Positions 3,001 to 62,270 are shown, numbered from the stretch's first letter. The stretch is 64,000 bases of DNA from Novakomyces olei (GCA_016906335.1 JADEYG010000003.1:1488001-1552000); one strand, 5' to 3'. The notes: generated by a model not told the origin, from the letters alone. Numbers and translations are program-made.

Positions 3001-4923
3001 CATCCTGACGGTCAAGTAACGGACTGAGCAAATCGGTTGCCTCTGCATAATGACCGAGCTTATACTCGCACCAGGCAAGTTCTAAAATAACAGACAGATT
3101 GGTCTTCTCTGCGCAGGACTTCGCCTTGGCTAATATTTCCCGGGCCAAAGTATAATCGTTCCTTGCTTGAGCAAGTAAGCCATCGCCCAGCAAGGCCTCA
3201 ACATTGTCCGGGTACTCGGTCAGCAACTGTTTAAACAGCCGTTCAGCCAGAGGATAGTTTTTTGGCGGTACATTACGCAAATACCCATACGCTAACCATA
3301 TCCGAAGCTGTAACAGGGTTTTCTGCATAGACAGAGATGTTGCTTCTGATTGCGCATTTACCAGGTCTATTGTGTGTGTTGCGTAATCGCATAGTAAAGC
3401 GTACTCTTGTGCATAGTAAAGGACTTGACATGCTGCCCGCTGACAGACAATAGACGCCTTGTTTTTGGCCGCGTGGTCCACAACATCAGCAGCGGCATAA
3501 AACTCCGGTGTATTCTGATTATTGTCGGCGTAAGGGTTTACATTTTCATGGTCAGTAGTGCCATCTTGCCCATTGTTGCTAGCTTTGTCATCATCATCGC
3601 TATGATTTCTGTTTTTGTCTCCATTTTTATTATGTTCATCCTTCTGATGCAAATCTGTAAACATTAATTCAAAACAATAGGCTAGTGCCGAGTCCGGAAA
3701 CATGGTGCAATAATCCCGAACAATTTCTTGATTGTAGTCTTTGGTATACGCGACATCGTGCCATTCGAAATAAATGTCCCAGACCTGCTGGTTTTGGACG
3801 CGAAGAAGAATGAAGTCGTCAGCCGCTTTTGCTACTTTTTGGCTCAGGGAGGGCTTTCTTGATTTGGGGCAGTTCAAGAGCTCGTCGTATAATCTTTGGA
3901 ATAATTTGATCTCATAACTTCTCCGCAATTCGTCGTCATGTGTCCAGTCGATTACGCCTTGTACATAATCCACATATTTGGACTGCTCGTACACTTTTGT
4001 TTTGATTTCTGCCGAATAGCTCTTCATATCAATGCCAAGCCGGGTTCTTGCACTAGCTAGGTGCTTTGCCATCCAATTAGATTCCTTTTCAAGGAGCCCG
4101 GATGCAAGTTTTTCGTATACCACATCTGGAGGCGGAACTGATCCTTGAACAGCTGAATATATGGGCGAATCCGGCAAACAAAGTTTAAGCACAGACCAGT
4201 ACTGCAATGTAAATGTTAGCCTTGGTTATAGCAGATCACAGCCAGCAAAATTGATAAGGTAAAAATTTAAATTTAAAAATCACAATTTTGAACAAATTTG
4301 GAAAATTTGACAAATAAAAAATTAATTTAAACAATGAAATATGTTGTAAAAAAAGGATAAACACTTAGACTTTACCAATTCGATATGCGCCTTGTCGGCT
4401 TGGACCAGCTCCATAAACGATGTCAGTGTGGATACACATTTCTCTGGATGATCACTAAAGGCGAACTGTGAGTATTTCTGATGCAGAAAATATTATGATT
4501 GATTTCGAGATTATTCTCAAAACAAGTCCCTTACAGCTGATTGTACAAAACGACAAGCTTTTCCACAACGTGATACAATGAAGGTAAATCCTTATTTTTG
4601 GTAAACAAGTTATAAAGACCCTAGAGACGTTAATACAATTTTCGTTATGTGAACGAGGTTTCAGTTATGTCTGCCAAAAATCCGATGTATTGGAGACTTA
4701 CCTGCCAAGCAAGAAGCTGCTCAGGATCAACTCGAGTTGCTTGCTCGTATGAAGCGCGTGCTTCATCCAAATGGCCCAAATTCAACTGTGCTAGTCCGGC
4801 AAAGACGAGCGCATGATAATTGCTTTCATGAGTTTCTAGAACCAATTGGGCTTGAGCTAGCGCAGTGTCGAAATCATTTTTTTGAATTGCTTCACGTGCC
4901 GCTTTTAACGCGGCCCGTGACAT
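1..4923 (-). CDS. SKI3: Superkiller complex TPR subunit Ski3 (multi-exon; 3' end runs off window start)
   Basis: ATG at 4923 (MSRAALKAAREAIQKNDF...NYHALVFAGLA, typical Ski3/TTC37 N-terminus). ORFs 4645-4923, 1538-4207, 1195-1464 and 601-1167 join through 7 GT-AG introns (e.g. 4701-4621, 1651-1495) into a long TPR protein (RAAKCFHKAFELD, AQHSFIKAL). Confidence 0.9.
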
Positions 4924-4953
4924 TGCGCTGTGACTAGATGCACATTATTCTTG

Positions 4954-5170
4954 AACCCTAGATTTACGTCAAGTCAATGATGACATGAACTAAATCACAT
5001 CACACGATTAGAAAACCCTAATAAATTGGTGATGCTCGATAACGAGCGTTGGCTGAAAACCCTAGCACATTATTCGATATCAAAGAGCCCCATAATCGGT
5101 TTCACGTGATGACTGACCACTTACTTGTCCATCATGATACCATACCGTACCATACAATAAGAAAACCCTA
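4954..5170. promoter_or_regulatory. Cluster of telo-box-like (A)AACCCTA motifs in the divergent SKI3 / AMPK-beta promoter
   Basis: AACCCTA at 4954; AAACCCTA at 5013, 5057 and 5163; CACGTG at 5103. Function is inferred. Confidence 0.5.
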
Positions 5171-5302
5171 CCTTCTGACCGATGACATTGAGGAAAGTGG
5201 AGTCGCGTGCTCCAACAGCCTTGGGGTAAATCAGAGCGATAGGGCAGACCAATCAGCCCACTGCAGGGTCAAATATCTATTATTGATTAGCCAATAGATC
5301 AA

Positions 5303-6568
5303 ATGGGCAACACACAAAGCTCAAATCGTGACCGCGAAGAAGGAGGCAGACCACGAGGGTCGAGCGCTTCGGATCACGCTTTTAGCGGGCTGCCTCAACG
5401 CCGCCTGAGCCGTCGTGAACGGCGGTTCACCAATGAAAGCGCTGGCGGTGCTACAGCGACTTCGCCTGCGCCTTCATCCAAAAGTGGGCATGGCTCAGTT
5501 CGCAACCAAAGGCACCGACTTAACATGTTGGACGAAGACGCTGAGGATCGAGTATCGCCGGCCGTTACTCGTGCTTCTGCTCAAGGGGGAGGAGCTTTAC
5601 ACGACAGTAATATCGGCACCTCTCCGGGCACCGACGATACAAAAGCAAGTGGAGATGGTGAGTTTAGACTCTGGAGATTTGGAAAGTTTCGAATTAATTA
5701 CTAATGATCAATAGCCCACTTGATACCGACAATACTTCAATGGCGTAAAGGCGGTAACAACATTTCCGTGATTGGGTCGTTTACCGGATGGGCAAAGAAA
5801 ATCAAATTATCAAAAAGGTGAGCTTGCTTTAAAAAAGAGAAAAAAATAAAATGACGGATGAAAGCTTAGGGCTTTAAGCAGAGGTTTTGCTTACGATTTA
5901 GTGCGCATGATTTTTCAACTATTATAAATCTTCCACCAGGCACTCATCGGCTCAAATTCCAAGTTGATGGCGAGTACCGGTGCAGCGATGAGCTTCCCAC
6001 CGCTACAGATTCAGTGGGCAATTTAGTTAACTACATTGAAGTGTCAGAGGAAGAATTTGCCCTTAATGACTCTAATAATAGTGCTTATAACGTTCTTTCA
6101 CGTAAGTGTCCTTGAGCTTTCAAGCTTCTGTACCGCACTCTTCTCTTTCACATTTTATTATGTTATCTACCTTTTTTTCTTCCTTTAGTCTTGATTCTTT
6201 CTGATTTTGGTTTTCATAATTATCATTTCTGTGGCCACTGGCTAATACTATTAGCACGCGAATTACCGGCAGATGTTTACATTGACGAGATACCTGGATT
6301 TATTCGCAATGATAGTGCGCCTATTTTCCAGTATGCCAAAGACTACTCGGCGCCCGGTTTACCACCTCAATTGGAAAAGGTTATTTTAAATACTACAAAC
6401 TCAATGAGCAAAGACGATCAGAGCGTTTTGGCCAATCCTAACCATGTTGTTCTCAACCATTTAGCTGCCACAAGTGTTAAGAATAACGTGCTTGCTGTAT
6501 CTGCTACAACAAGGTATCATCGGAAGTATGTCACTACTATTCTTTATACACCAGTGGACAAGGATTGA
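5303..6568 (+). CDS. amk2: AMPK/SNF1 beta subunit (Gal83/Sip2/Amk2 family), 4 exons
   Basis: MGNTQS myristoylation start; glycogen-binding CBM (PTILQWRKGG...GSFTGW...LPPGTHRLKFQVDGEY); C-terminal ASC domain (PNHVVLNHLAATSVKNNVLAVSATTRYHRKYVTTILY); 3 GT-AG introns. Confidence 0.93.
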
Positions 6569-7223
6569 GTCCATTTATCTTATGAGGTTTAGGTTTTAGT
6601 CTGTTATTTTAATTGATTTTATGAGCGCCAAAATCATTCTGTATAAATCTAATAAGTCCAAACGAAACACATATTAATTCATGATCAAACTGTGATGTGT
6701 CATTTCATTCTGGCAAATTCTTCTTTAGGCGTGTTACTGCAGTAGGTGGTGACGATACTAGCTGTAGCACCTCCTCGTTATTATCGTCTAGACATTCATG
6801 TCCATATAGCTAGCTGCTATGCATCCAGATCTTTGGCGGTTGTAGCTGAGATGGTTGTCATTTTTGAATCAAATAATATTACGGCTTCATTGTATTCCAT
6901 CTTAATTTCGACATACTGAATTTCCCAGATTCCCGTTTACGGAAATAAAAAAGGGAAAGTATTCTAGTGTCCGCCATATTTTGTATTTTGAATCAATATC
7001 CTCCCCAGATATACTATAATATGTTTAGACCAACATTGAGCAAGCAAGTCCTCCCGATATTGCGAATTAGCACAATACAAGAGTTTGCCCCTTTAAAAAA
7101 TATAATAAATAAAATTAAATTAACAAATAATAAATAATAAATAATAAATAATATTATTAATGATTTGGCATCAGTAGCCAGTAGCAGAGTATTCTAGAGG
7201 TTTGTCCAGTATCTCAAACCCGC

Positions 7224-8513
7224 ATGCCTTTAGCTTATCTACTCGGCGGAAATCTGAACTGGCTTGCCGAAAAACTTTCAAATCGCAATGTCCAGGCTCT
7301 CGTGCTCATATCGATCGTCGTTGTTTTAGCAAAGAAATGGTTTTCCGGTGCGCAGAATACATGGGAACGCGACTTGCATGGGCGTGTTTTTATAATAACC
7401 GTATGGGACATGACATTATTCGATTCTTGTTTTGTTTGCTTTTGTTGCCAGTTTAAACTTGGATTATGCCCGATACTTGCCTGCTTTGCTTGGTCTCTTT
7501 TTCATTTGATATGAACCATTTTCCCCGTGCAATTCTAAAATTAACCATCAAAGGGAGGCACATCAGGGATAGGGTGGGCCACTACTCGGCAATTAGCGAG
7601 CCGTGGAGCTCAGCTTATACTGCTCACACAATCAGACCCGGATCAAGTACTGGTTGATCAGATTGAAGCTCTTCGCGAGGAAACTCAAAATTTATTAGTC
7701 TATACAGAAACGTGTAATCTTGCATCACTCCAGTCTGTGCGTCAATTCGCTACAAAATGGATCGATAACGCACCACCTCGACGTCTTGACGCTGTGCTTT
7801 GCTGTGCATCTGTTTTGCTACCACCTGGAGCAGAACGTACAGTCAGTAAGAGCGAAATAGAGTTACATTGGGCCGTCATTTACTATGGCCATTTATTGCT
7901 GCTCGATATTTTGACCCCTGCGTTACGCGTTCAACCGCCTGATCGCGACGTTCGCGTAATTATTGTCACGTGCAGTCTTCACATGTTATCGGGGCTTTTA
8001 CCGGACGCTGTACGTGCAGACAAGATGGGCGAGTACCCGCGCTGGACTCCATGGACCGTGTTTGCCAATGCCAAACTGGCTCTAATGGCTTATGGCCTGT
8101 CTCTACAGCAGGAGATGACAAGGTACAAGAGGCCAGACGGCCAGCCGAATGGTGTTAGTGTCTTATTGGTCGATCCGGGAGTTGTGCGGACTCCGGGGTT
8201 CCGTCGGTTTGTATCGTTTGGATCTCTATGGGGCCTCTTGGCTTACGTATCGCTCTACCCGTTATTCTGGTTCTTTTTCAAAAACGAATTACAGGGAGCT
8301 CAAAGCATTCTTTACGCTGCAATGTCGCCAGAGTATAAGCATAAGAGTAATATCGAATACATTCGAGAGTGTAGTAGTATGCGGCTACGGAAAAAGGAGC
8401 TGGGAGACCAGTCGTTTGTGGACAATGTTTTGAAACATGGACGGGCATGTTTGGAGGAAGCGGAAAAGCGATCAAGGCCCAAGAAAAATGCAAAAGGCAA
8501 AGCGACGCAGTAG
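7224..8513 (+). CDS. PBR1: Short-chain dehydrogenase/reductase, Pbr1 (YNL181W)-like ER protein, 2 exons
   Basis: Intron 7401-7553 gives WERDLHGRVFIIT|GGTSGIG; also VRQFATKWIDNAPPRRLD and LRVQPPDRDVRVI, typical of this fungal family. Confidence 0.8.
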
Positions 8514-8725
8514 GTTTGGATTGTGAGAAGGCCCAAGTGTGCTTGCAAAATCAAGATTTTGAGGACAGATGGATGGCTATTCTAATACAATTTACGGTGG
8601 ACAATGGAATTATAATCTCCGTAATTTTGATGAGCTACGGCCGAAAATAGCAATATAGAAAAACTGATGCATAGCACATTTAGCTCTGTTGTGGATAGTC
8701 AAAGTGTTTTATTGAATATCATTAC

Positions 8726-9252
8726 ATGAGACATTTTGAAACTGTACGGTGTATCAGAATCCGAGCTGTACATAAAGATGAAACAAATCCTCGCGTGTTT
8801 GAAAAATGCACTAATTCGATATAATCTCAAAACAAATATTATATAGTGCGAGATCAACATGTAATAATTACATATAAAGCAATTGCTCTATAGATATTAC
8901 TTGTGCACATTACCGGACGAGGAATATCGGTAAAGGCATTAGTTGAAGAAAAGGAGCTAAAATACAGTAGCGCCGACTCTAACATTACTGGTGCTGCCTT
9001 TACCAACCAAGAGTATGATTACTTGACTAATCTTGGAGACAGGCAGAAAAACAAAGTGATCGCAAAAAATCTCCGCCTAATCTGCGGTAGGCGCTGATTT
9101 TATAAGCAATAACGTGGATCTGTTTGGGTCTTGAGCTTCGTTTTGCGGCCAAGACACTGCGATTTGTCTCTCTTGTCTAACAATATTGTACGCGTCATTG
9201 CTTTTGCATGAACACCTCTTTCAGGATAAAAAGTGTGGTCTTTTCGCAGTGA
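8726..9252 (+). other. Possible small multi-exon gene or spliced transcript, not represented as one ORF
   Basis: Series of short intron-like segments (8930-8967 GTAAAG..GCTAAA..CAG; 9013-9042 GTATGA..CTAAT..CAG) that can be spliced in frame. No homolog recognised. Confidence 0.25.
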
Positions 9253-9498
9253 GAACGGGCGCATGGCGGTTCATTTATGTCATCAGCAATTAAACAGGCA
9301 ACCATCTCTCGGTTGGTAATCAACGACTGCAAGACGAGTCTTTAAAAATACCAAAATAAAAGGAAAATATCAGTCAGATAAAACGAGCAGAGGATTGGGA
9401 AAGGGATCGATGCGTGATCGAAAATTTGGGTTGTTTTAGATCAGGTTTATCGCAAAACTGCCGTGTTTGTCGCTCGAGTTACCTCTATTACGGTCGTC

Positions 9499-11092
9499 AT
9501 GCCTTTATATCATTGCGACGTATGTTCGCAAGACATAACACGTCTAGTGCATATAAAATGCGTAGAGTGCGAGGATTTTGATCTATGCATTCCGTGTTTC
9601 ACGTCTGGCTCTACCGCAGGATCTCATCAGCCCTGGCACGCGTATCGCGTAATCGAGACCGACAGCTACCCGCTTTTTGATCCTGACTGGGGTGCTTATG
9701 AGGAAATGCTTCTCATTGAGGGACTGGATACCTATGGCCTTGGGAACTGGGCCGATGTCGCTGATCATGTGGGGAATGCTTGGACAAAGGAAGATTGCGC
9801 ACAGCACTACCTTGATCTTTATATAAACTCGCGTACATATCCTGTTCCTGTATGCTTTCTCGTACCGCTCTCTGCTTTCTTTTATACATCTTGTTTCTTT
9901 TTAAATCTTTTTTCTGTTTAAATCTTTTTTCTTTACTAATTCAATTTAACGCTGTTCTATCGTCTAGTTTTCGTGTATTCTTTTCCGTCTGGTTTATTCA
10001 AACTAACATTGTAGGAAATACCTGCAGAGATAAAGGTTGACCGTGAAGAGTTTCAAGTACGCAAGAAACGGAGAATTGAGCAGTCACTAGCTGCGCAAAA
10101 GCTGCAGTCGGTCGCTTCGCAGCGGTATAAACCAGTCTCCTCGCAACCAGCCAATCATGAGATCCAAGGGTACATGCCTGGCCGATTAGAATTTGAGACG
10201 GAGATTGAGAATGACGCGGAAACGTCGATTAAAGACTTCTCCTTCGACGAAGATATAGCGGAAGGCAACGAAGCAGAGCTCCAGCTCAAATTGATCATGC
10301 TTTCAATCTATAACGGCCGTCTTACGCGAAGAGCAGAGCGAAAACGCGTTGTATTCGAACATAATCTCTTGGACTACAAACGCAATCAAGCTGTTGATAA
10401 ACGGAGACCAAAGGAAGAAAGAGACCTATTATTGAAGACGCGTCCTTTTGCACGAATGCAAAATTCAGAGGATTACGATGCTTTTGCTGACGGACTTGTG
10501 AACGAGCTTCAACTTCGGCGCTGTATCTCAGAGCTTCAAGAGTGGCGTCGTAACGGGCTTACGACCCTCGATCAAGGCGGCAAATACGAACGTGACAAAG
10601 CACAAAGGGTACGAAGTTTGCAGTATCGGACTGTTTATTATTTTTATCTAATTATCTATTGTATTTGCTAATATTCAGCAATCTGTTGCGCGCAACACGG
10701 GAGTCCTTATGAGCGGCGACAAATTTTCTCGGCCGTCAAAGACGTCAATGGCTGCGTCGGCTGGTATGCCTACGCGTAGCACTGCCTCGGAAGAGTTTAC
10801 TCGAGAAGGTGCAGCCGCTAAATGGATGCGGCAGATTAATATGTATCCTGCTTTATCAGACGCTGCAGATGCTCAATTGCTAACACCAGCGGAACAAAAT
10901 TTATGTTCAGTGCTGCGTATATTACCCAAGCCCTACTTGGCAATAAAGGAGGCTATAATCCGGGAATTACTTCGCACAGGGGGCCAGTTGAAACGCAAAC
11001 AGGTTCGTGACCTATTCAAGATTGATACGTCGAAAGCATTCAAGATTTATGAGTTTTTTGTGCAGAGCGGGTGGGTACCGTCTAAATCATAA
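9499..11092 (+). CDS. ADA2: SAGA transcriptional adaptor Ada2, 3 exons
   Basis: ZZ zinc finger ([11 protein letters not shown]...[14 protein letters not shown]), SANT ([13 protein letters not shown]), [12 protein letters not shown] and C-terminal SWIRM; 2 GT-AG introns. Confidence 0.95.
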
Positions 11093-32519: not shown

Positions 32520-34299
32520 GATTTGCATTTGAATTTTATTTAAATCTTCTTACCTCTGCATGTATTTCAAGCCGGAAAGGGACTCTTCGAGCAGTTTCTG
32601 GCTTTGTGCATTGGCTGCATCATATTGCTCTACGTCAATGAGCGACGTAATGTGTAATTCAAAGGCTTGTGGATCTTTTATAAAAGATTCAAGCGGCTTG
32701 TAAGGCCGGAATACGATCTCGGTTGCCTCCTTGGAGTCTAGCGATTGATTAGTAAATTGGAAACTGATCATTATAGTCAATTAGACTGTAAACGTAACGT
32801 GCAAACAGAACCAAATACAATAAAACATCAAATCAAGTATGAAGTAAACCCACCATGTTTGACTTTGAACTGCTCCGATATTTGTAGCGCATTATTTAAT
32901 AAAGCTTTCGACAGAATTCGAGGGCTCGCATCCAGGAATTCAACTGGAAGACGGCCAACGGAATTTGCCGGATAGTTCAACCCGGTAAGAAAAGACTAGT
33001 TGTGTCAACAATAACAGAAAAACAAGAAAACAGTTAATTGAGTTTAAATTAACTCAAATTTAAACGTTGAGAAATTACACAAAGATCAATACCATCAAAG
33101 GCGCCACATCGGCTTGGGCAATATCATTACGGGAAACTGACCCCAGATTCCATGGCTGCGAAACGCTATCATGACCAGTTCCCTTATGGTCAGGAGCCCT
33201 TATCCCCGCTCCCCAAGTAATAATAGGTGTCTGCGTATTATCAGGGTGCCCGTCACCGTGACTGCCGAAATCACTCATTCCATGATCTGCAGTAAAAACA
33301 TAGGCAGTTTTCCCGTCGTTACGATAAAAGCGGTTCAGCTGTTGTTCTACATTACGAATGCCCTCATCAACGAGTTTTATGTTATCCAAATACTCACGGG
33401 AATAAGGCCTGTGAGCATGGCCATTCATATCCAGTCCTAATAAATGTAGAAACATAACAGTTCCCGGCTGATGCAATTGCTTACGCAGCGATTCATTGGT
33501 GCTTGCGTTACGCAACAATTCCTCAACATGATCAAACACCCAAGTATCGAGATCGGCAGCGTGACTGGCGGCAAAGTTTTCCATCTCTGGAGAATAACAA
33601 GCTTGTTCTACCCGGTCGGGATCAGAGGCTCCTTCAGCAAACATGGGCAAAATATCCGGGGATCCATATGACCAGGTGTGCACGCTTTGATTGAATACTG
33701 AATCGAAATCAACCGGGTTCGTCTTCCAGCCTTTTGTTACTGCGCTGACATCCTCGTAGAATCCAGCAATAAGCGCAACATGGCCAGGTCGTGATTCTGT
33801 GGGTACACGGGTGTGTGAGACGCCAAAGCGGCCACGCTGCAATACAACTGACCGCAGAAACGGGTTCAAGTATTCATTGTTTACGGGTTCAAATAGTTTG
33901 TCGGCACGTAGACCGTCGCCTATTAATTAGAGACTAGTTCTCCACAAACATAGAGTGAAATAAAAGCAGGTAGAGGAAACGTAAATCCGGCACAAATAAA
34001 AGAACATGAAGCAATACGAATTAAAAAGCGAATTATACTTGCGAGGCATTGAGCCAAAAGTAATCCATCTGCCTTGAAAACCAAATCTGATCTCAGTCTC
34101 ATACCCACAATTAGCACGACGCGATCGGCCGGAGGCGCGCTAGTGCTGCGGAATTGGCGCATGCCATGAACGAGGGGCGTCCGAAAATATATATCAAAAA
34201 TAGATCGAATGAACAGCACATGGAACACTACTATTAGAAGAATCACAAACTTTCCATACCAATGCCAAGAAATAGCACGCCACTTTTACTCCAGGCCAT
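30604..34299 (-). CDS. MCD4: GPI ethanolamine phosphate transferase 1 (Mcd4/PIG-N), 8 exons
   Basis: SIFDIYF, VG|DGLRADK, SHTRVPTESRPGHVALIAGFYEDVS, HLLGLD, TADHGMSDFGSHGDG, AFFGTGNVAS, EGSWLD|IGTSISHF. Confidence 0.95.
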
Positions 34300-37709: not shown

Positions 37710-37730
37710 TATTAACCCTAACTAACCCTG
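37710..37730. promoter_or_regulatory. TATTAACCCTAACTAACCC element upstream of QTRT1
   Basis: Identical to 34535-34553; about 155 nt upstream of ATG 37883. Confidence 0.5.
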
Positions 37731-37882
37731 TAGTATAGCCTTTTGTAGCATGCTTTCAATCTTTCTGCCATAGCAAAATGTGCGTGATTGTGATAAGATA
37801 ACAAGAATTATTTAGCTGCATGTCATTAATTTTTTTATCTAATAAAGGCTCGTTTGTAGTCTGAGGTTGAGGCTTTATTGCA

Positions 37883-39747
37883 ATGACGGACTCCGTGCCA
37901 CAAGCGCCATCGGCGCTTGAATTGAATATTATAGCCGAATGCTCAACAACAAAAGCTCGCGCAACGGTATTTATAATACAATTTGTCTGTTAGAAGAAAG
38001 TGCTTATTCGTTTAGGTGTTGACTCTGCCGCATGGGCCTGTGGAAACTCCTGTTTTTATGCCGTAAGATTTGTTGGAATTCAAGTACTGATTGAAGTGTC
38101 GGGACGCGTAGGTCGCTAATGTAGACTATGGATTTTCTAATACGCAAGAGGGTACTTTGAAAGGACTTACACAAAAGCAACTTGAAAACCTCGGCTGCCA
38201 GGTAATTTCTTGCCCTTGTGTTTTGACGCACTAATGTCTAACTTTCAAGATTATGCTGAACAATACTTACCACCTGATATGTCTATAATTATTTGTCGTT
38301 GCTCTATTTTCTAATTCGACTACGGGTTAAAACCTGGCCAGGACACTCTTGATTTTATTGGCGGCGCTCACCTTTTTCAAAACTGGCATCGTAATATTCT
38401 TACGGGTAAACGCTTTTCTTTGACATTGATAACATTTTTCTTCATACGCTAATAAACTTTTCCAAGACAGCGGCGGTTTCCAAATGGTCTCGCTGCTCAA
38501 ACTTGCAGAAATCACGGAAGAAGGTGTCCGGTTTCTCAGTCCTCACGATGGAACTCCAATGCTTCTTACACCAGAACACTCTATATCCCTACAGAATTCT
38601 ATCGGAGCTGATATAATGATGCAATTGGATGACGTTGTTTCATCAGTTACCACGGGGCCCCGTGTGGAAGAAGCAATGTGGAGATCTATTCGCTGGCTGG
38701 ATCGGTGTATAAAAGCAAACGCGCGCCCTCACGACCAGAACCTTTTTGCTATCATTCAGGGAGGCCTTGATCCGGACTTAAGGCGAGTCTGCTGTCGCGA
38801 AATGGTTAAACGCAATACTCCAGGAATTGCCGTTGGTGGTCTAAGCGGTGGAGAAGCGAAAATGACGACTTTCCAAGTGTGCGAAATATCCTATATCCTT
38901 TATATTTTATCCTTGTTTGATTGTGTTTTTAATACCCAGGGTAAATGCTTGCACTGACGAACTGCCACGAGAAAAACCGCGCTATTTAATGGGTGTAGGC
39001 TATGCTGAAGATATGATTATCGCCGTCGCTCTCGGTATTGATATGTTTGATTGGTAAAATTTTTATTTTTTATTAATTTATTTATTTATTTATTTGTTTA
39101 TTTTATTTATTTAATTTTTTTCTCAAAAGAGCGTTTGTTTTATTGCATAATGGATAGCAGATGATTCACCCACAGTGTTTTAATATTATTTGCTTGTTCT
39201 ATTCTTTCGAATCTATCATGTATATTTTTCAATCGTTCTCTTGGTTCTTGTTTTCATCAGATGCTAATTACAGCGTTTATCCCACAAGGACAGCGGTACG
39301 TATAGACATCCATAGGTCAATGCTAACATTCAGCGATTCGGAAACGCAATTACACCCAAAGGTGTATTAAATATGAAGAATCGCGCTTTTGCCCAAGATT
39401 TTTCTCCAATCGACGATTCTTGCACGTGCCCGTATTGCCAGCCCGGGAAGCATCGGATTACACGCTCTTTTCTCTTTCATACGGCGTGTAAAGAGGCAGT
39501 TGCAGCCCATATACTAACAGTTCACAATGTGCATTATCAGGTATGTCGGTTCTTTGCAATAGTCTAACTTGATGCGCAGCTGAATTTAATGCGTGAGGCA
39601 CGAAACGCTATCATAAAAGACCAATTCCCGTCTTTTGTTAAACGATTTTTTATGGTTCTCTACAACGGGGATCGGTCGAAATACCCAGAATGGGCGGTTG
39701 AGCCTTTGCGACTAGTGAACATAGACTTGCTGGCAGATCAAAATTAG
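37883..39747 (+). CDS. QTRT1: Queuine tRNA-ribosyltransferase catalytic subunit (eukaryotic TGT), 11 exons
   Basis: Spliced motifs [88 protein letters not shown], zinc site CTCPYC...HN. Confidence 0.96.
38277..38323 (+). other. Non-canonical AT-AC intron (intron 5 of QTRT1)
   Basis: CAC CTG|atatgt...ttctaattcgactac|GGG TTA AAA CCT; only AT-AC boundaries restore H-L-G-L-K-P. Confidence 0.8.
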
Positions 39748-40198
39748 TTTTGCAATACCTGTCCCAGATTTAAATATCAATATTGTAATGGGTCCAGCCC
39801 AGAAATCTATAGGGTTAGGGTTAGGGTTTTATATCACATGCTCTTGTAAATGTCAAGAGTTGGAGCGCTGAAGTATAACCCCCGTTGTTCTAGAGCAGTA
39901 ATCAAACGCGAAATGACCGTATATAATCATGACCACAGACGCCAATTCCAATGATGAAGACCATCCTTTAGTCCAAATACTACCTGAGCGCGTGCCAAAC
40001 GAACGCGGGAATAAACGGGAAAAGCAATAGACGGACAACACAGCCAGTCGTTAGGTACAAGGATCCGCCATAGGCAACGGACGGCAATGTAAAAAAATAC
40101 AAAACAATCCCGTTGCCCACGCAAACAGGCGATGAGGCAAATCCAGATCAGTGCAAGTTTACCCGTTGCAGTCGAGCATACTACAATATCCGAGCCTG

Positions 40199-44636: not shown

Positions 44637-47147
44637 TCAGCTCCAGCCGAAAACAGTGTTTTCAGCTTGCACTGGATGCGAAATTAGGGCTCCAGGCCCT
44701 TCAGAAGGAGACCGTCGATGTCCATTTTGATGCATCATAGCATTAGAAGCTGCGGACGACGATCTTTGACCCAGCCATGTTGTCAGACGTGATCGGGCAC
44801 GCATGGAAAACCGTTGTGCCGGAGCGAATAAAGGCGATGCCTGGTCCTGCCGGGCTCGTCTCCTCAATTCCCTTTTGCCCCATGAATCAGAGCGCCTTGA
44901 AGCTGAGGCAAACTCCTCATTGGCCGATGCTAATCGACGCTGTCTCCTCAGCCGTGCAATATATATAATCAGCCCGACGTATATACAGGCACCGGCCACG
45001 GATCCGATGCCTATGCCAATCATGCTCTTTTGCCCAGGACCGTGTCCTCCGTCAGCATTAAGCGACCCAGACGTAGCGCGTTCAGCTGCATTAGCCTGAG
45101 CTGACGTTGAAGAACTGATCCCGGATGCTCTCCCATCTTTTGCACCGGCGCCAGAGTCGCTTTGCCCATCGTCAGCGACCCGCTCAACCCCAAATGCAGC
45201 ATCGATGAGGTCTACAAGCGAGTGCACACTCGCATCACTGCCAGTACTGCTGCTGGCGTAGAAAGCACTTTTTCGATCACGTACAAGTCCATCCAGCTCT
45301 GAGACTGCTGATCCTGACATGTAAAAGTAGGCCATTGTAGCATTGTAGGCATCCTGTGACGGCTCATCCTGTGACGGCTCTTGGCTTTCACTTTTGCTTT
45401 CACTTTGGCTTTCACTTTTGCTTTCACTTTTGCTTTCCCTGGCAGCATTCTCCGTAAAAAGGGGCCTTGCACGCAGACTCTGGACGACTACCTTTCCACT
45501 GTTGCCGGACAAGACAGACTCGATGCCCTCCGGGAGGTACTCCATAATCTGTGAAATTGATAGAGGGTGGGTCGCAACAAAGCCATAGTTCAACGGCCTC
45601 TGGAACACGACACGGACGAGTTCGCTATCCCGCCCGGGAGGCAGAGTGCTGCCATTCGCAGGGAAGATGACTTGAGGCAGAGAAGGAGTAAAAGTAGAAC
45701 TGGGCTGGGCAGATGTGCCTACTGTACTGCTCGCACTGGCTGCGCTGGCAGACGATGCACCATCGTACAGCAACGTGGAGGGCAAGAAATTGTCTGTAGA
45801 CGGGAGAGTAGTAGGCGTAGCGCTGCCCGTGCCTGTCTCTGTCACTAGTGTCGTAGGCGCTACCGTGACTGTCTGCTGAGTGCTTTGCTCGGGCAGAGGA
45901 GAGCTCGAGCTGGCTGAAGCTGAGCTGGTCTGAGCTGGCTCGGTAGCGCTAGACTGTGCCGTGCCAGTGTATGAAGCTTGAGACGAGCTCGAGCTCGTTT
46001 CTGTACTGGCCTCAGTCTCTGTACTGACTGTACTGACTGTACTGACTGTACTGACTGTACTGACTGTACTAGTTCCTGTAGCAGTTCCTGTATTAGTTCC
46101 TGTACTAGTCTCTGTACTAGTCTCTGTACTAGTTCCTGTACTAGTTTCTGTACTAGTTCCTGTACTAGTCTCTGTACTAGTCTCTGTACCAATTCCTGTA
46201 CTAGTTCCTGTACTGGTTCCTGTAGCAGTTCCTGTACTGGTTCCTGTACTGGTTCCTGTAGCAGTTCCTGTAGCAGTTCCTGTACTAGTCGCTTCTGATG
46301 GGGTAAAAAACACGGTGGAAAAAGACTCGGTGGCGGTCGCTGTATGCGACTGCTCGCTTGTAGCAGTCTGTACGGATTGATTTGTGCTTGTGGGCGTAGA
46401 GACAGTTGCCTCAACGGACGTGGGCGCAGCTGTCTCTGTAGTGTCTGGCTGACTGCCTGTAGTACGAGACGAGGAGGAGGAAGCGCCGGTTGTCGCCGCA
46501 GACGGCTCTGTACTACTGCTCGGCTCGAATGACGATAGCATTCCCGTAGAAGCAGTCGCTACAAAAGAAGCTGGTGAGGACTCTGACTCTGGTGTAGCAG
46601 AGGCCGTCGCTGACGTAGAAGCACTTGTCTCAGACGAGCTTGTCTCAGACGAGCCTGCTGGACTGCTGAGGGTGGTAGACGTCGTTGGTAAAGGGGTATC
46701 AGACGTCGAGGGAGTAAAATCCAGACGAATAGGCGTGGGATAAAGGCCCGCAGAAGCAGTACTTGAGTTTGCCTCAGTAGACGCTGGCAGCGGTTCGCTG
46801 GCAGCGGTGGCAGCAGTCTCACTGCCGCCAGCAGCGGCGGCAGTTGTGGACGCGCTGCTGTCAAACACCTGGCTCTGTAGACTAGAGCTGGTCGGGGTTA
46901 GGGTTAGGGTTAATGTGCCTTCGGTCGGTTCGCTGGGCTGCGCAGTTGTCCTGGAAAACCAGTCTGCCTGATCATAGTTTGTGTACCGCGACGAGACCGT
47001 TTGCGAGGCGGCAGAGGGTTCGTCTCGCGTCGAGGGCTCTGCAAAAGTGCCATTGTTTGCCTGTCGGCGAACAACACTGTGCAGTCTGTGCAAATCAAGA
47101 GCCTCTGCTGAAGCTGCCAACAGCCACACGACGGCGAGGAGACGCAT
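44637..47147 (-). CDS. MSB2: Signalling mucin Msb2/Hkr1 family
   Basis: Signal peptide, long Ser/Thr region, HMH-like domain (VFQRPLNYGFVATHPLSISQIMEYLPEGI), one TM segment, tail ending ISHPVQAENTVFGWS. Confidence 0.88.
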   Translation of the reverse strand: MRLLAVVWLLAASAEALDLHRLHSVVRRQANNGTFAEPSTRDEPSAASQTVSSRYTNYDQADWFSRTTAQPSEPTEGTLTLTLTPTSSSLQSQVFDSSASTTAAAAGGSETAATAASEPLPASTEANSSTASAGLYPTPIRLDFTPSTSDTPLPTTSTTLSSPAGSSETSSSETSASTSATASATPESESSPASFVATASTGMLSSFEPSSSTEPSAATTGASSSSSRTTGSQPDTTETAAPTSVEATVSTPTSTNQSVQTATSEQSHTATATESFSTVFFTPSEATSTGTATGTATGTSTGTSTGTATGTSTGTSTGIGTETSTETSTGTSTETSTGTSTETSTETSTGTNTGTATGTSTVSTVSTVSTVSTVSTETEASTETSSSSSQASYTGTAQSSATEPAQTSSASASSSSPLPEQSTQQTVTVAPTTLVTETGTGSATPTTLPSTDNFLPSTLLYDGASSASAASASSTVGTSAQPSSTFTPSLPQVIFPANGSTLPPGRDSELVRVVFQRPLNYGFVATHPLSISQIMEYLPEGIESVLSGNSGKVVVQSLRARPLFTENAARESKSESKSESQSESKSESQEPSQDEPSQDAYNATMAYFYMSGSAVSELDGLVRDRKSAFYASSSTGSDASVHSLVDLIDAAFGVERVADDGQSDSGAGAKDGRASGISSSTSAQANAAERATSGSLNADGGHGPGQKSMIGIGIGSVAGACIYVGLIIYIARLRRQRRLASANEEFASASRRSDSWGKRELRRRARQDQASPLFAPAQRFSMRARSRLTTWLGQRSSSAASNAMMHQNGHRRSPSEGPGALISHPVQAENTVFGWS
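46021..46290 (-). repeat. Coding tandem repeats in Msb2 (9-nt STV x5; 12-nt TSTG/TATG/TSTE array)
   Basis: (gtactgact)n followed by (ctagttcctgta)-like units. Confidence 0.9.
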
Positions 47148-58390: not shown

Positions 58391-59179
58391 TCATGAGCCT
58401 CCAAACAAACGCGTCAAAAAATTAGACCCAGCCAGATTCGAGTTTGCTCGCATATGAGGCTCAATAAGCACAATTCGATTTGTGCGGTTCTCCTTTGTCG
58501 GGACGTCTACGTAAAGACTGCGCCATTCATGTCCATCTTTTGCCTTTGGATCACGGATAACATAAGCAAACACTTCAGCACTGCCCACGTCTCCCAACAC
58601 CCAAAACCGTACGTAAACATGCTCTAATTCATCCCGACCACGAACCACGGAACTTTGTGGAACACCCTGACTTCGTCGCGGCGGCCCACTGCCCGGGATA
58701 ACGGCCTGCGCTACTTGTTTCATTGAGGAAGCTGGTCCGATTGCGTTTACGCAGTTGGGATCCGCCTTTACACGATCAAAGGCTTCAGAGGCAATTTTGA
58801 CTTCGCCGCCCGTCATTGCGTCTACAAGAGAGTAGGCAGCTACTCCGAGCACAGTGGCAGCAAGCACAATTATAAGAGTACTGCTACTAAACGCAGAGCT
58901 CCGTGCTATGCGCTGAGAGCCTGATAGCTGAGACCAGGACCGTCGAGGATCATCGTGCGGCACAAGGCGGTACATTAGCGACGACTGCCTTTCTTTTTCC
59001 ACCTGTTGCTGCCGACGAGATTCAGATTCACGCATCAAGTCAAACGGATCAATGCGCGGAGGCGACTTTGGATCGGGCGACTTCGGATCGGTAGAGGTTC
59101 TTACCATTGACCGAGTGGAAAAGCATCGAGTAGTTAGTCTGCGGCCTCGCACGCACGCGCGGCAAAGGGATAGTGCCAT
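58391..59179 (-). CDS. TIM21: Mitochondrial import protein Tim21
   Basis: Presequence, WSQLSGSQRIARS, single TM, AFDRVKADPNCVNAIG, EHVYVRFWV, WRSLYVDV. Confidence 0.82.
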   Translation of the reverse strand: MALSLCRACVRGRRLTTRCFSTRSMVRTSTDPKSPDPKSPPRIDPFDLMRESESRRQQQVEKERQSSLMYRLVPHDDPRRSWSQLSGSQRIARSSAFSSSTLIIVLAATVLGVAAYSLVDAMTGGEVKIASEAFDRVKADPNCVNAIGPASSMKQVAQAVIPGSGPPRRSQGVPQSSVVRGRDELEHVYVRFWVLGDVGSAEVFAYVIRDPKAKDGHEWRSLYVDVPTKENRTNRIVLIEPHMRANSNLAGSNFLTRLFGGS

Positions 59180-59266
59180 TATTGACTTGGATCATTAGCT
59201 TGTTAATGTTACCATGGGCAGCGTGCTTTAAGGTACAGAATCTATAAATTTTGTTGAGGCGTTACA

Positions 59267-59511
<245 letters not shown>

Positions 59512-60642: not shown

Positions 60643-62270
60643 ATGGCTGCTACAGCAACAAAAGAAGAGTCGCAGTCGTTTTTTGCCCGTGTTCGGCAGA
60701 GCAATAAAGTACGCTTGGACAATGCTCTGTTTTGTTTGTTTTTTTTTTTTTTTAACTTTTTTTTGATCTACAATGATCTAATTACTGTTTCTTGTTTACT
60801 TCTACCGCTTTTCTTCGCGCCGTTATATGTTTTAGTATGATTAGTGCTAATGTGCAGACATGCTTTGATTGTGGTGCGAGTAACCCGACGTGGGCCTCGA
60901 CTCCCTTTGCGATTTACCTTTGCCTTGACTGTTCGTCGGTGCATAGAAACTTGGGCGTGCATGTCTCCTTTGTCCGATCCACTGTCCTCGATACATGGAC
61001 GTACGACCAATTGCGTATTATGAAAGTCGGGGGTAATCAGTCGGCAAACACTTATTTTACACGGCACACTGGCGCCAGCTTGTTAGCAAAACAAGACGCT
61101 GTTTCCAAGTATACGTCAAAGACGGCTATTGCTTACAAGGAAGAGTTGAAGCATCGTGCTGAGCGTGATGCCAAACTGCATCCGGACCTCTTCACTGACT
61201 CCAGTACGGCAGGAGACTCTGGCACCGGATCTTCCTCCCCAGCGGCCGATGACAGTGACGATTTCTTTTCTTCGTGGGACAAACCCGTGGTTAAAAAGCC
61301 GACTCCGCCGCCGTCACGTACAAGCACTCCTCCCGTTGTAGGGCGGACGCCTTCTCCACTGGCGGTCTCAACCACAGCAGCTCAGCCGGCGGTTGCGCGT
61401 TCGCTCAAGCAAAGTTCTGCTTTACGGCCGGGTTCAGTGGGAAGAAAGTCCGTTTTGAGCGGAGGAGGGTCTAGTGCAAAAAGATCAGACTCACACAAGC
61501 GAGCGGAAAAGGCAGCGGCTATCGACTTTGAAGAGGCGGAGAGGAAAGCTAAAGAGGAAGCAGAGCGTGTAAAGCAATTGGGCTATAATGAGGAGCTGGA
61601 AAGGCAACAGCAGCAGCAACGCGCTGCTTCTGCACAGAGCAACGGTGGAGGGTATGGAATAAAACTGGCTGGCTCTGCTGTTTCAATGGACTCGAAACCT
61701 GTGTCTGCTCGATCTGGTAGTGCTACTACAGCTGGCTCTGGCAGCAAATCAAGTGCCCCGGCAATTGCACGATTAGGATTTGGTCAAGTGGCAAATAAGC
61801 CAGTTGCTTCCAAACCAGTCAGCAATAATAATAATAGTAACAACAGCCTTTTCGCAACAACGAATAGCGCGTCCGAAAGCAGAGATGCACGCGACCGGTT
61901 TGCCGGTCAAAAATCGATTTCCTCGGATCAGTATTTCAATCGTGGAGCCTATGATCCTGTGGCTTCCGCAGAGGCAAAGTCCCGGCTCAGTGAATTTGCT
62001 GGGGCTACTTCTATTTCTTCTAATGCCTACTTTGGCCGCCCTGAAGACGATGACGAGGATGCCGAGCGTGAAGGCGGTGGAGCCGGTGGAGGAGCCGCGT
62101 TCCTGCAGAATCGGGATTTGGGAGATTTGGAGAATACGGCACGCGACTATTTGCAAAAGCTTTCGCTTACTGCCGGTGAGGATTTGGATAACTTGCGGGA
62201 TGCGATTACAACTGGAGGCCGTAAACTGCAAGGGTTTTTGGAAAATTTGTCGGAGCGCTACAACTTGTAG
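60643..62270 (+). CDS. GLO3: ArfGAP Glo3 (ArfGAP2/3), 2 exons
   Basis: [14 protein letters not shown]...[16 protein letters not shown]...[21 protein letters not shown]; Glo3 motifs [10 protein letters not shown] and [10 protein letters not shown]. Confidence 0.95.

What the first reader, a model, noticed from the sequence alone, without database searches (positions are those of the whole stretch)
38277..38323. U2-type-looking AT-AC intron required in the QTRT1 (tgt) reading frame
Seen: the conserved TGT motif NTYHL-GLKPG is interrupted by 47 nt starting ATATGT and ending TAC, with CTAAT just upstream of the 3' end. No GT-AG alternative works: the only nearby AG is at 38340-38341, and both candidate GT donors (38281, 38296) give a stop. 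Known: minor (U12) AT-AC introns have ATATCCTT donors and CCTTAAC branch sites. This intron instead has the major-spliceosome donor GTATGT with G1 changed to A, a major-type branch site and a compensatory terminal C. Inference: a rare natural U2-dependent AT-AC intron, possibly a converted U12 intron or a rate-limiting step for queuosine tRNA modification. Two independent terminal changes make sequencing error unlikely.
Basis: partly seen in the sequence, partly recalled or inferred. Interest (0 to 1): 0.8.

Follow-up and report, generated by a model that had tools for sequence, protein, structure and literature searches.

The report
AT-AC intron in fungal queuine-tRNA gene
A fungal gene for the queuine tRNA-modifying enzyme can only make its conserved protein if a 47-base intron with the rare ends AT...AC is removed, most likely by the ordinary (major) spliceosome; this kind of intron is rare but already known, including in fission yeast.

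Summary
At 38277-38323 a 47-nt stretch (ATATGT ... CTAAT ... TAC) interrupts the invariant NTYHL|GLKPG motif of a QTRT1/TGT gene. The gene is otherwise intact, with 11 exons and nine GT-AG introns.

- **No canonical alternative:** no GT-AG or GC-AG excision keeps the motif.
- **Not an assembly error:** a DNA data set from a second study has identical sequence.
- **A real, old intron site:** 15 of 75 metagenomic orthologue loci carry a GT-AG intron at the same site.
- **U2-type signals:** positions +2 to +6 and the branch site match this organism's own major-type introns. They do not match the U12 consensus.
- **Lineage:** best hits place the organism in Ascomycota, a phylum reported to lack the minor spliceosome.

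Best reading (about 0.8): a natural U2-type "AT-AC II" intron. This is a known rare class with an RT-PCR-proven precedent in S. pombe lea1.

Two points are new. The orthologous introns lie one base upstream, in phase 2, so the history is not two simple substitutions. No orthologue at this site shows U12 features, so "converted U12 intron" is unsupported.

No RNA data exist, so splicing itself is inferred.

The parts
37883..39747 (+). QTRT1/TGT (queuine tRNA-ribosyltransferase catalytic subunit) coding region, 408 aa. Exons: 37883-37966, 38016-38062, 38097-38107, 38149-38201, 38250-38276, 38324-38405, 38467-38878, 38940-39053, 39274-39295, 39334-39540, 39580-39747.
   Evidence: Gene model. Pfam TGT PF01702 on exon 7 (E 4.8e-48) and exon 10 (E 1.1e-15). 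End-to-end blastp at 70.6-72.8% identity to seven Lipomyces TGT proteins, and the motifs DSGGFQ, CxCxxC, GGLSGGE and YLMGVG present.
38250..38276 (+). Exon 5 (27 nt), encodes IMLNNTYHL and ends ...CAC CTG
   Evidence: Preceded by a normal GT-AG intron (38202-38249) with CTAAT and CTAAC branch motifs.
38277..38323 (+). The 47-nt AT-AC intron (intron 5), phase 0
   Evidence: Its removal restores HL|GLKPG. It contains no AG, and retention gives a TAA stop at 38286-38288.
38277..38282 (+). 5' splice site ATATGT (exon base -1 is G)
   Evidence: Positions +3 to +6 (A, T, G, T) are the commonest letters at those positions in 12 verified GT-AG introns of this window: nine in TGT and three in PigN. It differs from the U12 consensus /ATATCCTT quoted.
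38311..38315 (+). Branch-site motif CTAAT; the likely branch A is 38314, 9 nt from the 3' end
   Evidence: At least 7 of the 9 GT-AG introns of the same gene have CTRAY, with the A 6-14 nt from the 3' end (read).
38321..38323 (+). 3' splice site TAC|
38319..38320 (+). Alternative upstream AC (GAC|TAC tandem). Using it removes 44 nt and adds one Tyr.
   Evidence: row 38277-38320. No homologue has an extra residue here (0 of 22).
38276..38322 (+). Rival register GA...TA, which is the same phase as the orthologous introns and gives the same protein (CTC instead of CTG for Leu)
   Evidence: row 38276-38322. Orthologue phase.
38324..38405 (+). Exon 6, begins GGG TTA AAA CCT GGC (GLKPG)
38340..38341 (+). 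The only AG near the site. It is the acceptor of the exon-5-skipping GT-AG alternatives.

Best explanation
The 47 nt at 38277-38323 are a genuine spliceosomal intron of an ascomycete QTRT1/TGT gene. It has the rare termini AT...AC and is removed by the major (U1/U2-dependent) spliceosome, making it an "AT-AC type II" intron.

Inferred mechanism, not shown here:
1. U1 and later U6 pair with the 5' site in the register ATATGT, which is the normal GTATGT-type site with A at +1.
2. U2 pairs with the CTAAT branch site 9 nt from the 3' end.
3. The second step is allowed because A(+1) and C(last) can replace the G-G non-Watson-Crick contact of normal introns.

The mRNA then joins ...CAC CTG to GGG TTA... 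and encodes the invariant NTYHLGLKPG.

The intron descends from an ordinary GT-AG intron found at this site in other fungi. Its boundaries sit one base downstream of the ancestral ones.
For: **The intron is required.**
- The gene is intact in every other respect: 408 aa, nine GT-AG introns, and catalytic and zinc motifs present.
- The junction aligns gap-free with 22 of 22 homologues.
- Of 1026 possible in-frame excisions, only 38277-38323 (AT-AC) and 38276-38322 (GA-TA) give HLGLKPG. None is GT-AG or GC-AG.

**It looks like this organism's own major-type introns.**
- Its length, 47 nt, lies within the gene's range of 34-61 nt; one further intron is 220 nt.
- The CTAAT branch site is at the usual distance.
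- Positions +2 to +6 equal the local consensus, and the exon base at -1 is G, as in 6 of the 9 GT-AG introns of the gene.

**The site is an old intron position.** 15 of 75 metagenomic loci covering the site have a GT-AG intron there.

**The sequence is real.** A contig from a second study is identical over 37800-39058.

**The lineage points to the major spliceosome.**
- Every named hit among the 120 listed for the neighbouring PigN gene is an ascomycete (phylum assignment from my own knowledge).
- The seven best full-length TGT matches are Lipomyces.
- Passages in Larue & Roy 2023 report no convincing minor introns in Ascomycota and loss of the minor snRNAs.

**Precedents, from passages read.**
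- AT-AC II introns are defined as having a U2-type 5' site apart from +1, and G1A is rescued by a G-to-C change at the last base (Sheth 2006).
- S. pombe lea1 has an AT-AC intron confirmed by RT-PCR.
- AT-AC is the most efficient pair after GT-AG in yeast.
Against: - No RNA evidence exists. No RNA run holds the locus, so excision and the exact junction are inferred.
- The whole genome is not held, so absence of U11, U12, U4atac and U6atac could not be checked. The window itself has 0 Rfam hits.
- Orthologous introns are in phase 2 and this reading is phase 0. The origin therefore needs at least two length changes, or a slide plus two substitutions, with broken intermediates.
- A GA-TA register gives the same protein.
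- An in-frame exon-5-skipping GT-AG isoform exists on paper.
- The 5' hexamer is ATATGT, whereas known metazoan AT-AC II introns have a strong ATAAGT consensus.
Confidence: 0.8

Rival explanations
1. Young pseudogene or null allele. The intron's two splice sites are simply damaged, the transcript is never spliced correctly here, and no functional TGT is made.
For: G1-to-A-type lesions are classical splice nulls. TGT and queuosine are dispensable in some fungi (recalled, not tested). The one-base offset from the orthologous introns means indel-type damage at both ends. There is no RNA evidence.
Against: Everything else is intact: the 1227-nt frame, nine GT-AG introns, the catalytic and zinc motifs, and 70.6-72.8% end-to-end identity to the seven best hits. 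The two changes fall exactly on the first and last intron bases, restore the frame, and create the one non-canonical pair known to work. By inference, a second random lesion would do this with a chance of roughly 1 in 1,000 to 10,000. A second data set has identical sequence.
Confidence: 0.07
2. The main mRNA uses only canonical sites and skips exon 5 (GT at 38202 to AG at 38341), giving a 393-aa protein without [15 protein letters not shown].
For: The product is in frame and stop-free. A GT-AG-only gene finder would choose it.
Against: It deletes 15 residues that include NTYHLG, which is invariant in 22 of 22 homologues. Exon 5 and the start of exon 6 still encode these residues perfectly, and exon 5 has its own normal acceptor and branch sites. 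That conservation is unexpected for sequence that never reaches the mRNA. A 140-nt intron would be unusual in this gene, where 8 of 9 GT-AG introns are 34-61 nt.
Confidence: 0.05
3. The intron is cut in the ancestral phase, at CT|GA...TA|C (38276-38322). This would be a GA-TA intron.
For: It gives the same protein, with Leu as CTC. Its position and phase are identical to the 15 orthologous GT-AG introns.
Against: In this register positions +2 to +6 (ATATG) mismatch the local 5' consensus, and exon base -1 is T. A G...A first-last pair is not a known working combination (recalled knowledge of Parker & Siliciano-type experiments; the cited passages mention only A-C).
Confidence: 0.03
4. A U12-type (minor-spliceosome) AT-AC intron.
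For: AT-AC termini. The branch site lies close to the 3' end and there is no long polypyrimidine tract.
Against: The 5' site is ATATGTCT, not ATATCCTT. The branch region is TTTTCTAAT, which is the same CTAAT/CTAAC as in the gene's GT-AG introns. U12 introns are defined by these two elements (consensus quoted). The best hits are ascomycete, and Ascomycota are reported to lack minor introns and snRNAs. Orthologous introns are U2-type GT-AG. A search for papers holding both QTRT1 and 'minor intron' returned 0.
Confidence: 0.02
5. Sequencing or assembly error at the two intron ends.
For: Two single-base differences would turn it into a normal intron.
Against: Contigs from two studies are identical across the site with 0 differences. 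Relative to the orthologues the differences are not simple base miscalls.
Confidence: 0.02

Closest known systems
U2-type AT-AC ('AT-AC II') introns of animals, e.g. SCN4A and SCN5A (Sheth et al. 2006, PMC1557818; abstract, sections and passages read)
   Same: AT...AC termini combined with a major-type 5' splice site apart from position +1. Very rare: 24 of about 610,000 introns in five species.
   Different: Metazoan examples have a strong ATAAGT consensus, whereas this one is ATATGT. This one is a 47-nt fungal intron, and there is no splicing experiment for it.
AT-AC intron in S. pombe lea1 (SPBC1861.08c), found by spliceosome profiling (bioRxiv 10.1101/226894; passages read)
   Same: A natural AT-AC intron inside a coding region of an ascomycete that lacks the minor spliceosome. 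It has otherwise strong signals and was missed by annotation.
   Different: Different gene and lineage. The lea1 intron was confirmed by RT-PCR and RNA-seq, while this one rests on sequence inference. Whether lea1 also shows a one-base offset from orthologous introns was not examined.
Engineered first/last-nucleotide double mutants of yeast and human introns (Parker & Siliciano 1993 and others, as cited in the passages; the originals were not read)
   Same: A at +1 is rescued by C at the last position, which is the mechanistic basis proposed here.
   Different: Those are laboratory constructs with reduced efficiency. This one is natural, and its efficiency is unknown.
Low-level AT-AC splicing in S. 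cerevisiae (RPL30 nested intron, PMC5029451; SUT635 protointron, PMC6726248)
   Same: The major spliceosome uses AT-AC in a yeast without a minor spliceosome.
   Different: Those are minor or non-coding events (about 1-2% of RPL30 mRNAs) with atypical 5' sites. Here the AT-AC splice is the only route to the conserved protein.
U12-type AT-AC introns
   Same: Terminal dinucleotides.
   Different: The 5' site and branch consensus are not met, and the lineage is reported to lack the machinery.

Membership tests
U2-type AT-AC (AT-AC II) intron | Intron begins AT and ends AC | tested here: met
   38277-38278 is AT and 38322-38323 is AC. This is the only register with a known terminal pair that yields HLGLKPG.
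U2-type AT-AC (AT-AC II) intron | 5' splice site matches the U2-type consensus except at +1 (criterion of Sheth 2006) | tested here: met
   ATATGT compared with 12 local GT-AG introns: +3 is A in 11 of 12, +4 is T in 5 of 12 (the commonest), +5 is G in 6 of 12, and +6 is T in 6 of 12 (counted by hand). No formal PWM score was computed.
U2-type AT-AC (AT-AC II) intron | U2-type branch site at the normal distance from the 3' end | tested here: met
   CTAAT at 38311-38315, with the A 9 nt from the end. The gene's other introns range from 6 to 14 nt (read by eye).
U2-type AT-AC (AT-AC II) intron | The intron is actually excised at these boundaries in RNA | not testable with these tools
   No RNA run holds the locus; only DNA contigs were laid.
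U2-type AT-AC (AT-AC II) intron | Splicing depends on U1/U2 and not on U11/U12 | not testable with these tools
   The genome is not held. The only evidence is a lineage argument: ascomycete best hits and the literature.
U12-type AT-AC intron | Highly conserved 5' site /ATATCCTT | tested here: not met
   The site is ATATGTCT, which mismatches at +5, +6 and +7 (consensus as quoted).
U12-type AT-AC intron | Conserved U12 branch sequence (TCCTTAAC-like; the consensus is recalled) near the 3' end | tested here: not met
   The branch region is TTTTCTAATTCGACTAC. It has the same CTAAT as the neighbouring GT-AG introns.
U12-type AT-AC intron | Minor snRNAs present in the genome | not testable with these tools
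   (no genome held). There are 0 Rfam hits in the 64-kb window, which says little.
Queuine tRNA-ribosyltransferase, eukaryotic catalytic subunit (QTRT1; Pfam PF01702) | TGT domain across the protein | tested here: met
   Exon 7 scores 164.5 bits and exon 10 scores 58.1 bits against a cut-off of 26.3. The full-length alignment covers residues 1-406 against Lipomyces TGT.
Queuine tRNA-ribosyltransferase, eukaryotic catalytic subunit (QTRT1; Pfam PF01702) | Catalytic DSGGFQ and zinc CxCxxC motifs (the roles of these motifs are recalled) | tested here: met
   DSGGFQ at residue 102 and CTCPYC at residue 314.

The most novel reading that the evidence does not exclude
The intron is cut in the ancestral phase as CT|GA...TA|C (38276-38322). 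That terminal pair has no known precedent for the major spliceosome. It would mean that 5' cleavage stayed fixed at the old G after a base was inserted behind it.

A milder and more likely novelty, roughly 0.5 if the AT-AC splice is real: this is a caught-in-the-act case of an AT-AC II intron arising in a fungus from an ordinary GT-AG intron by a one-base slide of both boundaries, rather than being an ancient relic.
Probability: 0.03. Interest if true: 0.75.

Novelty: new member of a known kind. Interest (0 to 1): 0.3.

Why it matters
**Annotation.** Gene finders limited to GT-AG and GC-AG will break this gene. They would either call it a pseudogene or output an exon-skipped protein lacking an invariant motif. 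The organism would then wrongly look unable to make queuosine-modified tRNA.

**Biology.** This is one more natural example, in a lineage reported to lack the minor spliceosome, of the A(first)-C(last) pairing rule of the major spliceosome. The one-base offset from 15 orthologous GT-AG introns gives a concrete, testable case of how such introns arise. Sheth et al. suggested AT-AC II introns are relics; this case suggests conversion from a normal intron.

It does not open a new field, because the class and a fission-yeast precedent are already in print.

Tried and rejected
- **RNA evidence:** no RNA holder is listed for the locus. X3 and X4 laid nothing.
- **Whole genome:** not held, so no search for minor snRNAs or for other AT-AC introns genome-wide.
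- **Rfam on the window:** 0 hits.
- **Earlier notes of this scan:** nothing by place, words or sequence.
- **Loose motif-plus-ORF scan for other AT-AC introns:** not discriminating. GT..AG gave 93 candidates, AT..AC gave 69, and control pairs gave 60-143. It even missed the true intron because the flanking exons are short.
- **The three candidates from that scan that begin exactly ATATGT:** all rejected.
  - 10839-10895 is plain coding sequence.
  - 60825-60859 lies inside a normal GT-AG intron.
  - 59173-59269 on the minus strand follows an (AAT)n microsatellite upstream of a TIM21 gene.
- **Extra reference introns:** PigN introns A, D and E were verified. Introns B and C could not be resolved and were left out of the counts. 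Three SKI3-like introns seen by eye were also left out.
- **Taxon placement with the TPR/SKI3-like ORF:** uninformative, with 9 hits and a best identity of 28%.
- **Paper searches:** one search was badly framed and gave nothing useful. 'QTRT1' plus 'minor intron' found 0 papers.
- **Supplementary tables:** not consulted. Lists of AT-AC introns in SpliceRack or in the spliceosome-profiling tables may hold further fungal examples.
- failed because one query was too short. It was repeated without that query.

Full report
**What is in the sequence**

The window is eukaryotic DNA with 39-52% G+C and many very short introns. No whole genome is held for it.

Between 37883 and 39747 on the + strand I could build one complete gene of 11 exons and 10 introns, encoding 408 residues.
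- Exon 7 and exon 10 match Pfam TGT, PF01702, at E 4.8e-48 and 1.1e-15.
- The joined protein aligns end to end (residues 1-406) with TGT/QTRT1 proteins. The seven best matches are all named Lipomyces, at 70.6-72.8% identity.
- It carries DSGGFQ, CxCxxC, GGLSGGE and YLMGVG.
- Nine introns are GT-AG. Eight of these are 34-61 nt and one is 220 nt.

It begins ATATGT, has CTAAT at 38311-38315, and ends TAC.

**Is its removal required?**

Yes, if the conserved protein is to be made.
- Exon 5 encodes IMLNNTYHL and exon 6 starts GLKPGQ. The joined model aligns without a gap to 22 of 22 homologues across this junction, and NTYHLG is invariant in them.
- Retention runs into TAA at 38286-38288.
- I enumerated every single excision of at least 20 nt starting at 38253-38344. 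Of these, 1026 are in frame and stop-free, and none is GT-AG or GC-AG.
- Only two excisions give HLGLKPG: 38277-38323 (AT-AC) and 38276-38322 (GA-TA). The latter gives Leu as CTC.
- A third option, AT-AC ending at 38320, removes 44 nt and adds one Tyr. No homologue has a residue there.
- With intron 4 kept, no second canonical intron works.

Two canonical GT-AG excisions do keep the frame, but only by skipping exon 5: 38202-38341 and 38220-38341. The first gives a 393-aa protein lacking [15 protein letters not shown]. These 15 residues are still encoded perfectly, and exon 5 has its own normal acceptor. I therefore regard skipping as, at most, a minor isoform.

**Is it more than chance, and is the DNA right?**

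The strict pattern ATATGT-N20-50-CTAAY-N4-14-YAC occurs once in the window, and that occurrence is this intron. About 0.6 matches are expected by chance, so the motif alone proves nothing. The weight lies in its sitting at the exact nucleotide the frame demands.

Contigs from two DNA data sets cover 37800-39058 with no difference. X1 may be the source of the window. X2 comes from another study, at a depth of about 5. Assembly error is therefore unlikely.

**It is an old intron site, with a twist**

A scan of metagenome contigs with exon 7 gave 80 TGT loci. Of these, 75 cover the NTYHL site.
- 60 are uninterrupted there.
- 15 have an intron there: L006-8, L011-14, L019, L024, L040, L051, L053, L063, L065 and L068.
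- All 15 introns are GT-AG, 35-94 nt long, with U2-type branch motifs.

In all 15 the intron lies inside the Leu codon, in phase 2: CAY YT|GT...AG|N GGN. In the window the same phase would be GA...TA, and the AT-AC reading is one base downstream, in phase 0. The G that is intron base +1 in the orthologues appears here as the last exon base, followed by an extra A. At the 3' end one base fewer separates the intron from GGG.

The history is therefore not simply G1-to-A plus G-to-C. It needs a one-base gain at the 5' end and a one-base loss at the 3' end, or a slide followed by two substitutions. This is inference; no close relative was available to order the events. None of the orthologous introns looks U12-like, so "converted U12 intron" has no support.

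**Which register and which spliceosome?**

I compared the intron with 12 verified GT-AG introns of the window: nine in TGT and three in PigN.
- ATATGT has the commonest letter at +3, +4, +5 and +6.
- Exon base -1 is G, as in 6 of the 9 TGT introns.
- In the GA-TA register, positions +2 to +6 would be ATATG and base -1 would be T. That is a poor 5' site, and no working G...A end pair is known to me.
- The branch A lies 9 nt from the end, within the gene's range of 6-14 nt.

Against the U12 type:
- Such introns are defined by their conserved 5' site and branch sequence.
- The consensus /ATATCCTT (quoted) is missed at +5 to +7.
- The branch region is the same CTAAT that the neighbouring GT-AG introns use.

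On lineage:
- A neighbouring ORF has the fungal-specific transcription factor domain.
- Every named hit among the 120 listed for the PigN ORF is an ascomycete, at no more than 42% identity (phyla from my own knowledge).
- The TGT is closest to Lipomyces.

The organism is thus an ascomycete without a close sequenced relative in these databases. Larue & Roy 2023 (passages read) found no convincing minor introns in Ascomycota or Basidiomycota and report that the minor snRNAs are lost. I could not test this genome directly.

**What is known**

- U2-type AT-AC ("AT-AC II") introns are established but very rare: 24 of about 610,000 introns in five species. G1A is rescued by a G-to-C change at the last base in yeast and human. 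Some fungal xylanase genes were already suspected of carrying such introns (Sheth 2006).
- S. pombe lea1 has an AT-AC intron inside its coding region. It was missed by annotation and then confirmed by RT-PCR, in a species without a minor spliceosome.
- S. cerevisiae uses AT-AC at low level in RPL30 and SUT635.
- In fungal annotations AT-AC is a minor class (Frey & Pucker 2020).

**Verdict**

The main interpretation, a natural major-spliceosome AT-AC intron, is the best reading at about 0.8. It rests on sequence, comparison and lineage, not on RNA.

Rivals:
| Reading | Probability |
|---|---|
| Pseudogene or null allele | 0.07 |
| Exon-5 skipping as the main product | 0.05 |
| GA-TA register | 0.03 |
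| U12 type | 0.02 |
| Sequence error | 0.02 |

It is a new member of a known kind. The one-base offset from the orthologous GT-AG introns and the GAC|TAC tandem 3' site are the only points that go beyond the textbook. A single RT-PCR product would settle the junction, because the AT-AC and GA-TA registers differ by one base in the mRNA.

Noticed in passing
window 38097-38107: An 11-nt microexon (encoding part of PVGTQ) flanked by introns of 34 and 41 nt. It is needed to keep the frame and the conserved MPVGTQG.
   Followed up: partly
window 39809-39826 (+), 46898-46909 (+), 2806-2817 (-); degenerate copy on the other strand at about 37712-37730: Telomere-like TTAGGG repeats inside the window: 4 matches to TTAGGGTTAGGG with at most 1 mismatch, against 0.2 expected. 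Two of them bracket the TGT gene in intergenic DNA. They may be promoter elements of the Tbf1/Teb1 kind (recalled, not tested).
   Followed up: no
window about 59270-59510, minus strand: A long (AAT)n microsatellite of roughly 80 units just upstream of a TIM21-domain gene (58391-59191, minus strand).
   Followed up: no
window 39054-39273: Intron 8 of TGT is unusually long for this gene (220 nt) and is made largely of T-rich TTTA-like repeats. The contigs of both DNA runs break at 39059-39123.
   Followed up: no
window 38319-38323: Tandem AC acceptors (GAC|TAC), 3 nt apart. This is an AT-AC analogue of NAGNAG sites that could give an isoform with one extra Tyr.
   Followed up: partly
whole window: The organism has no close relative in the protein collection. 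PigN reaches at most 42% identity, the SKI3-like TPR protein at most 28%, and TGT at most 73% over its full length. All the best named hits are ascomycetes. Some genes have 10 tiny introns, while neighbours have uninterrupted ORFs of around 900 codons.
   Followed up: partly
window 32735-33110, minus strand (PigN gene): Two presumed PigN introns (about 33092-32996 and 32853-32740) could not be resolved into an open frame with simple GT/GC-AG boundaries. A further small exon or a non-canonical site may lie here.
   Followed up: partly
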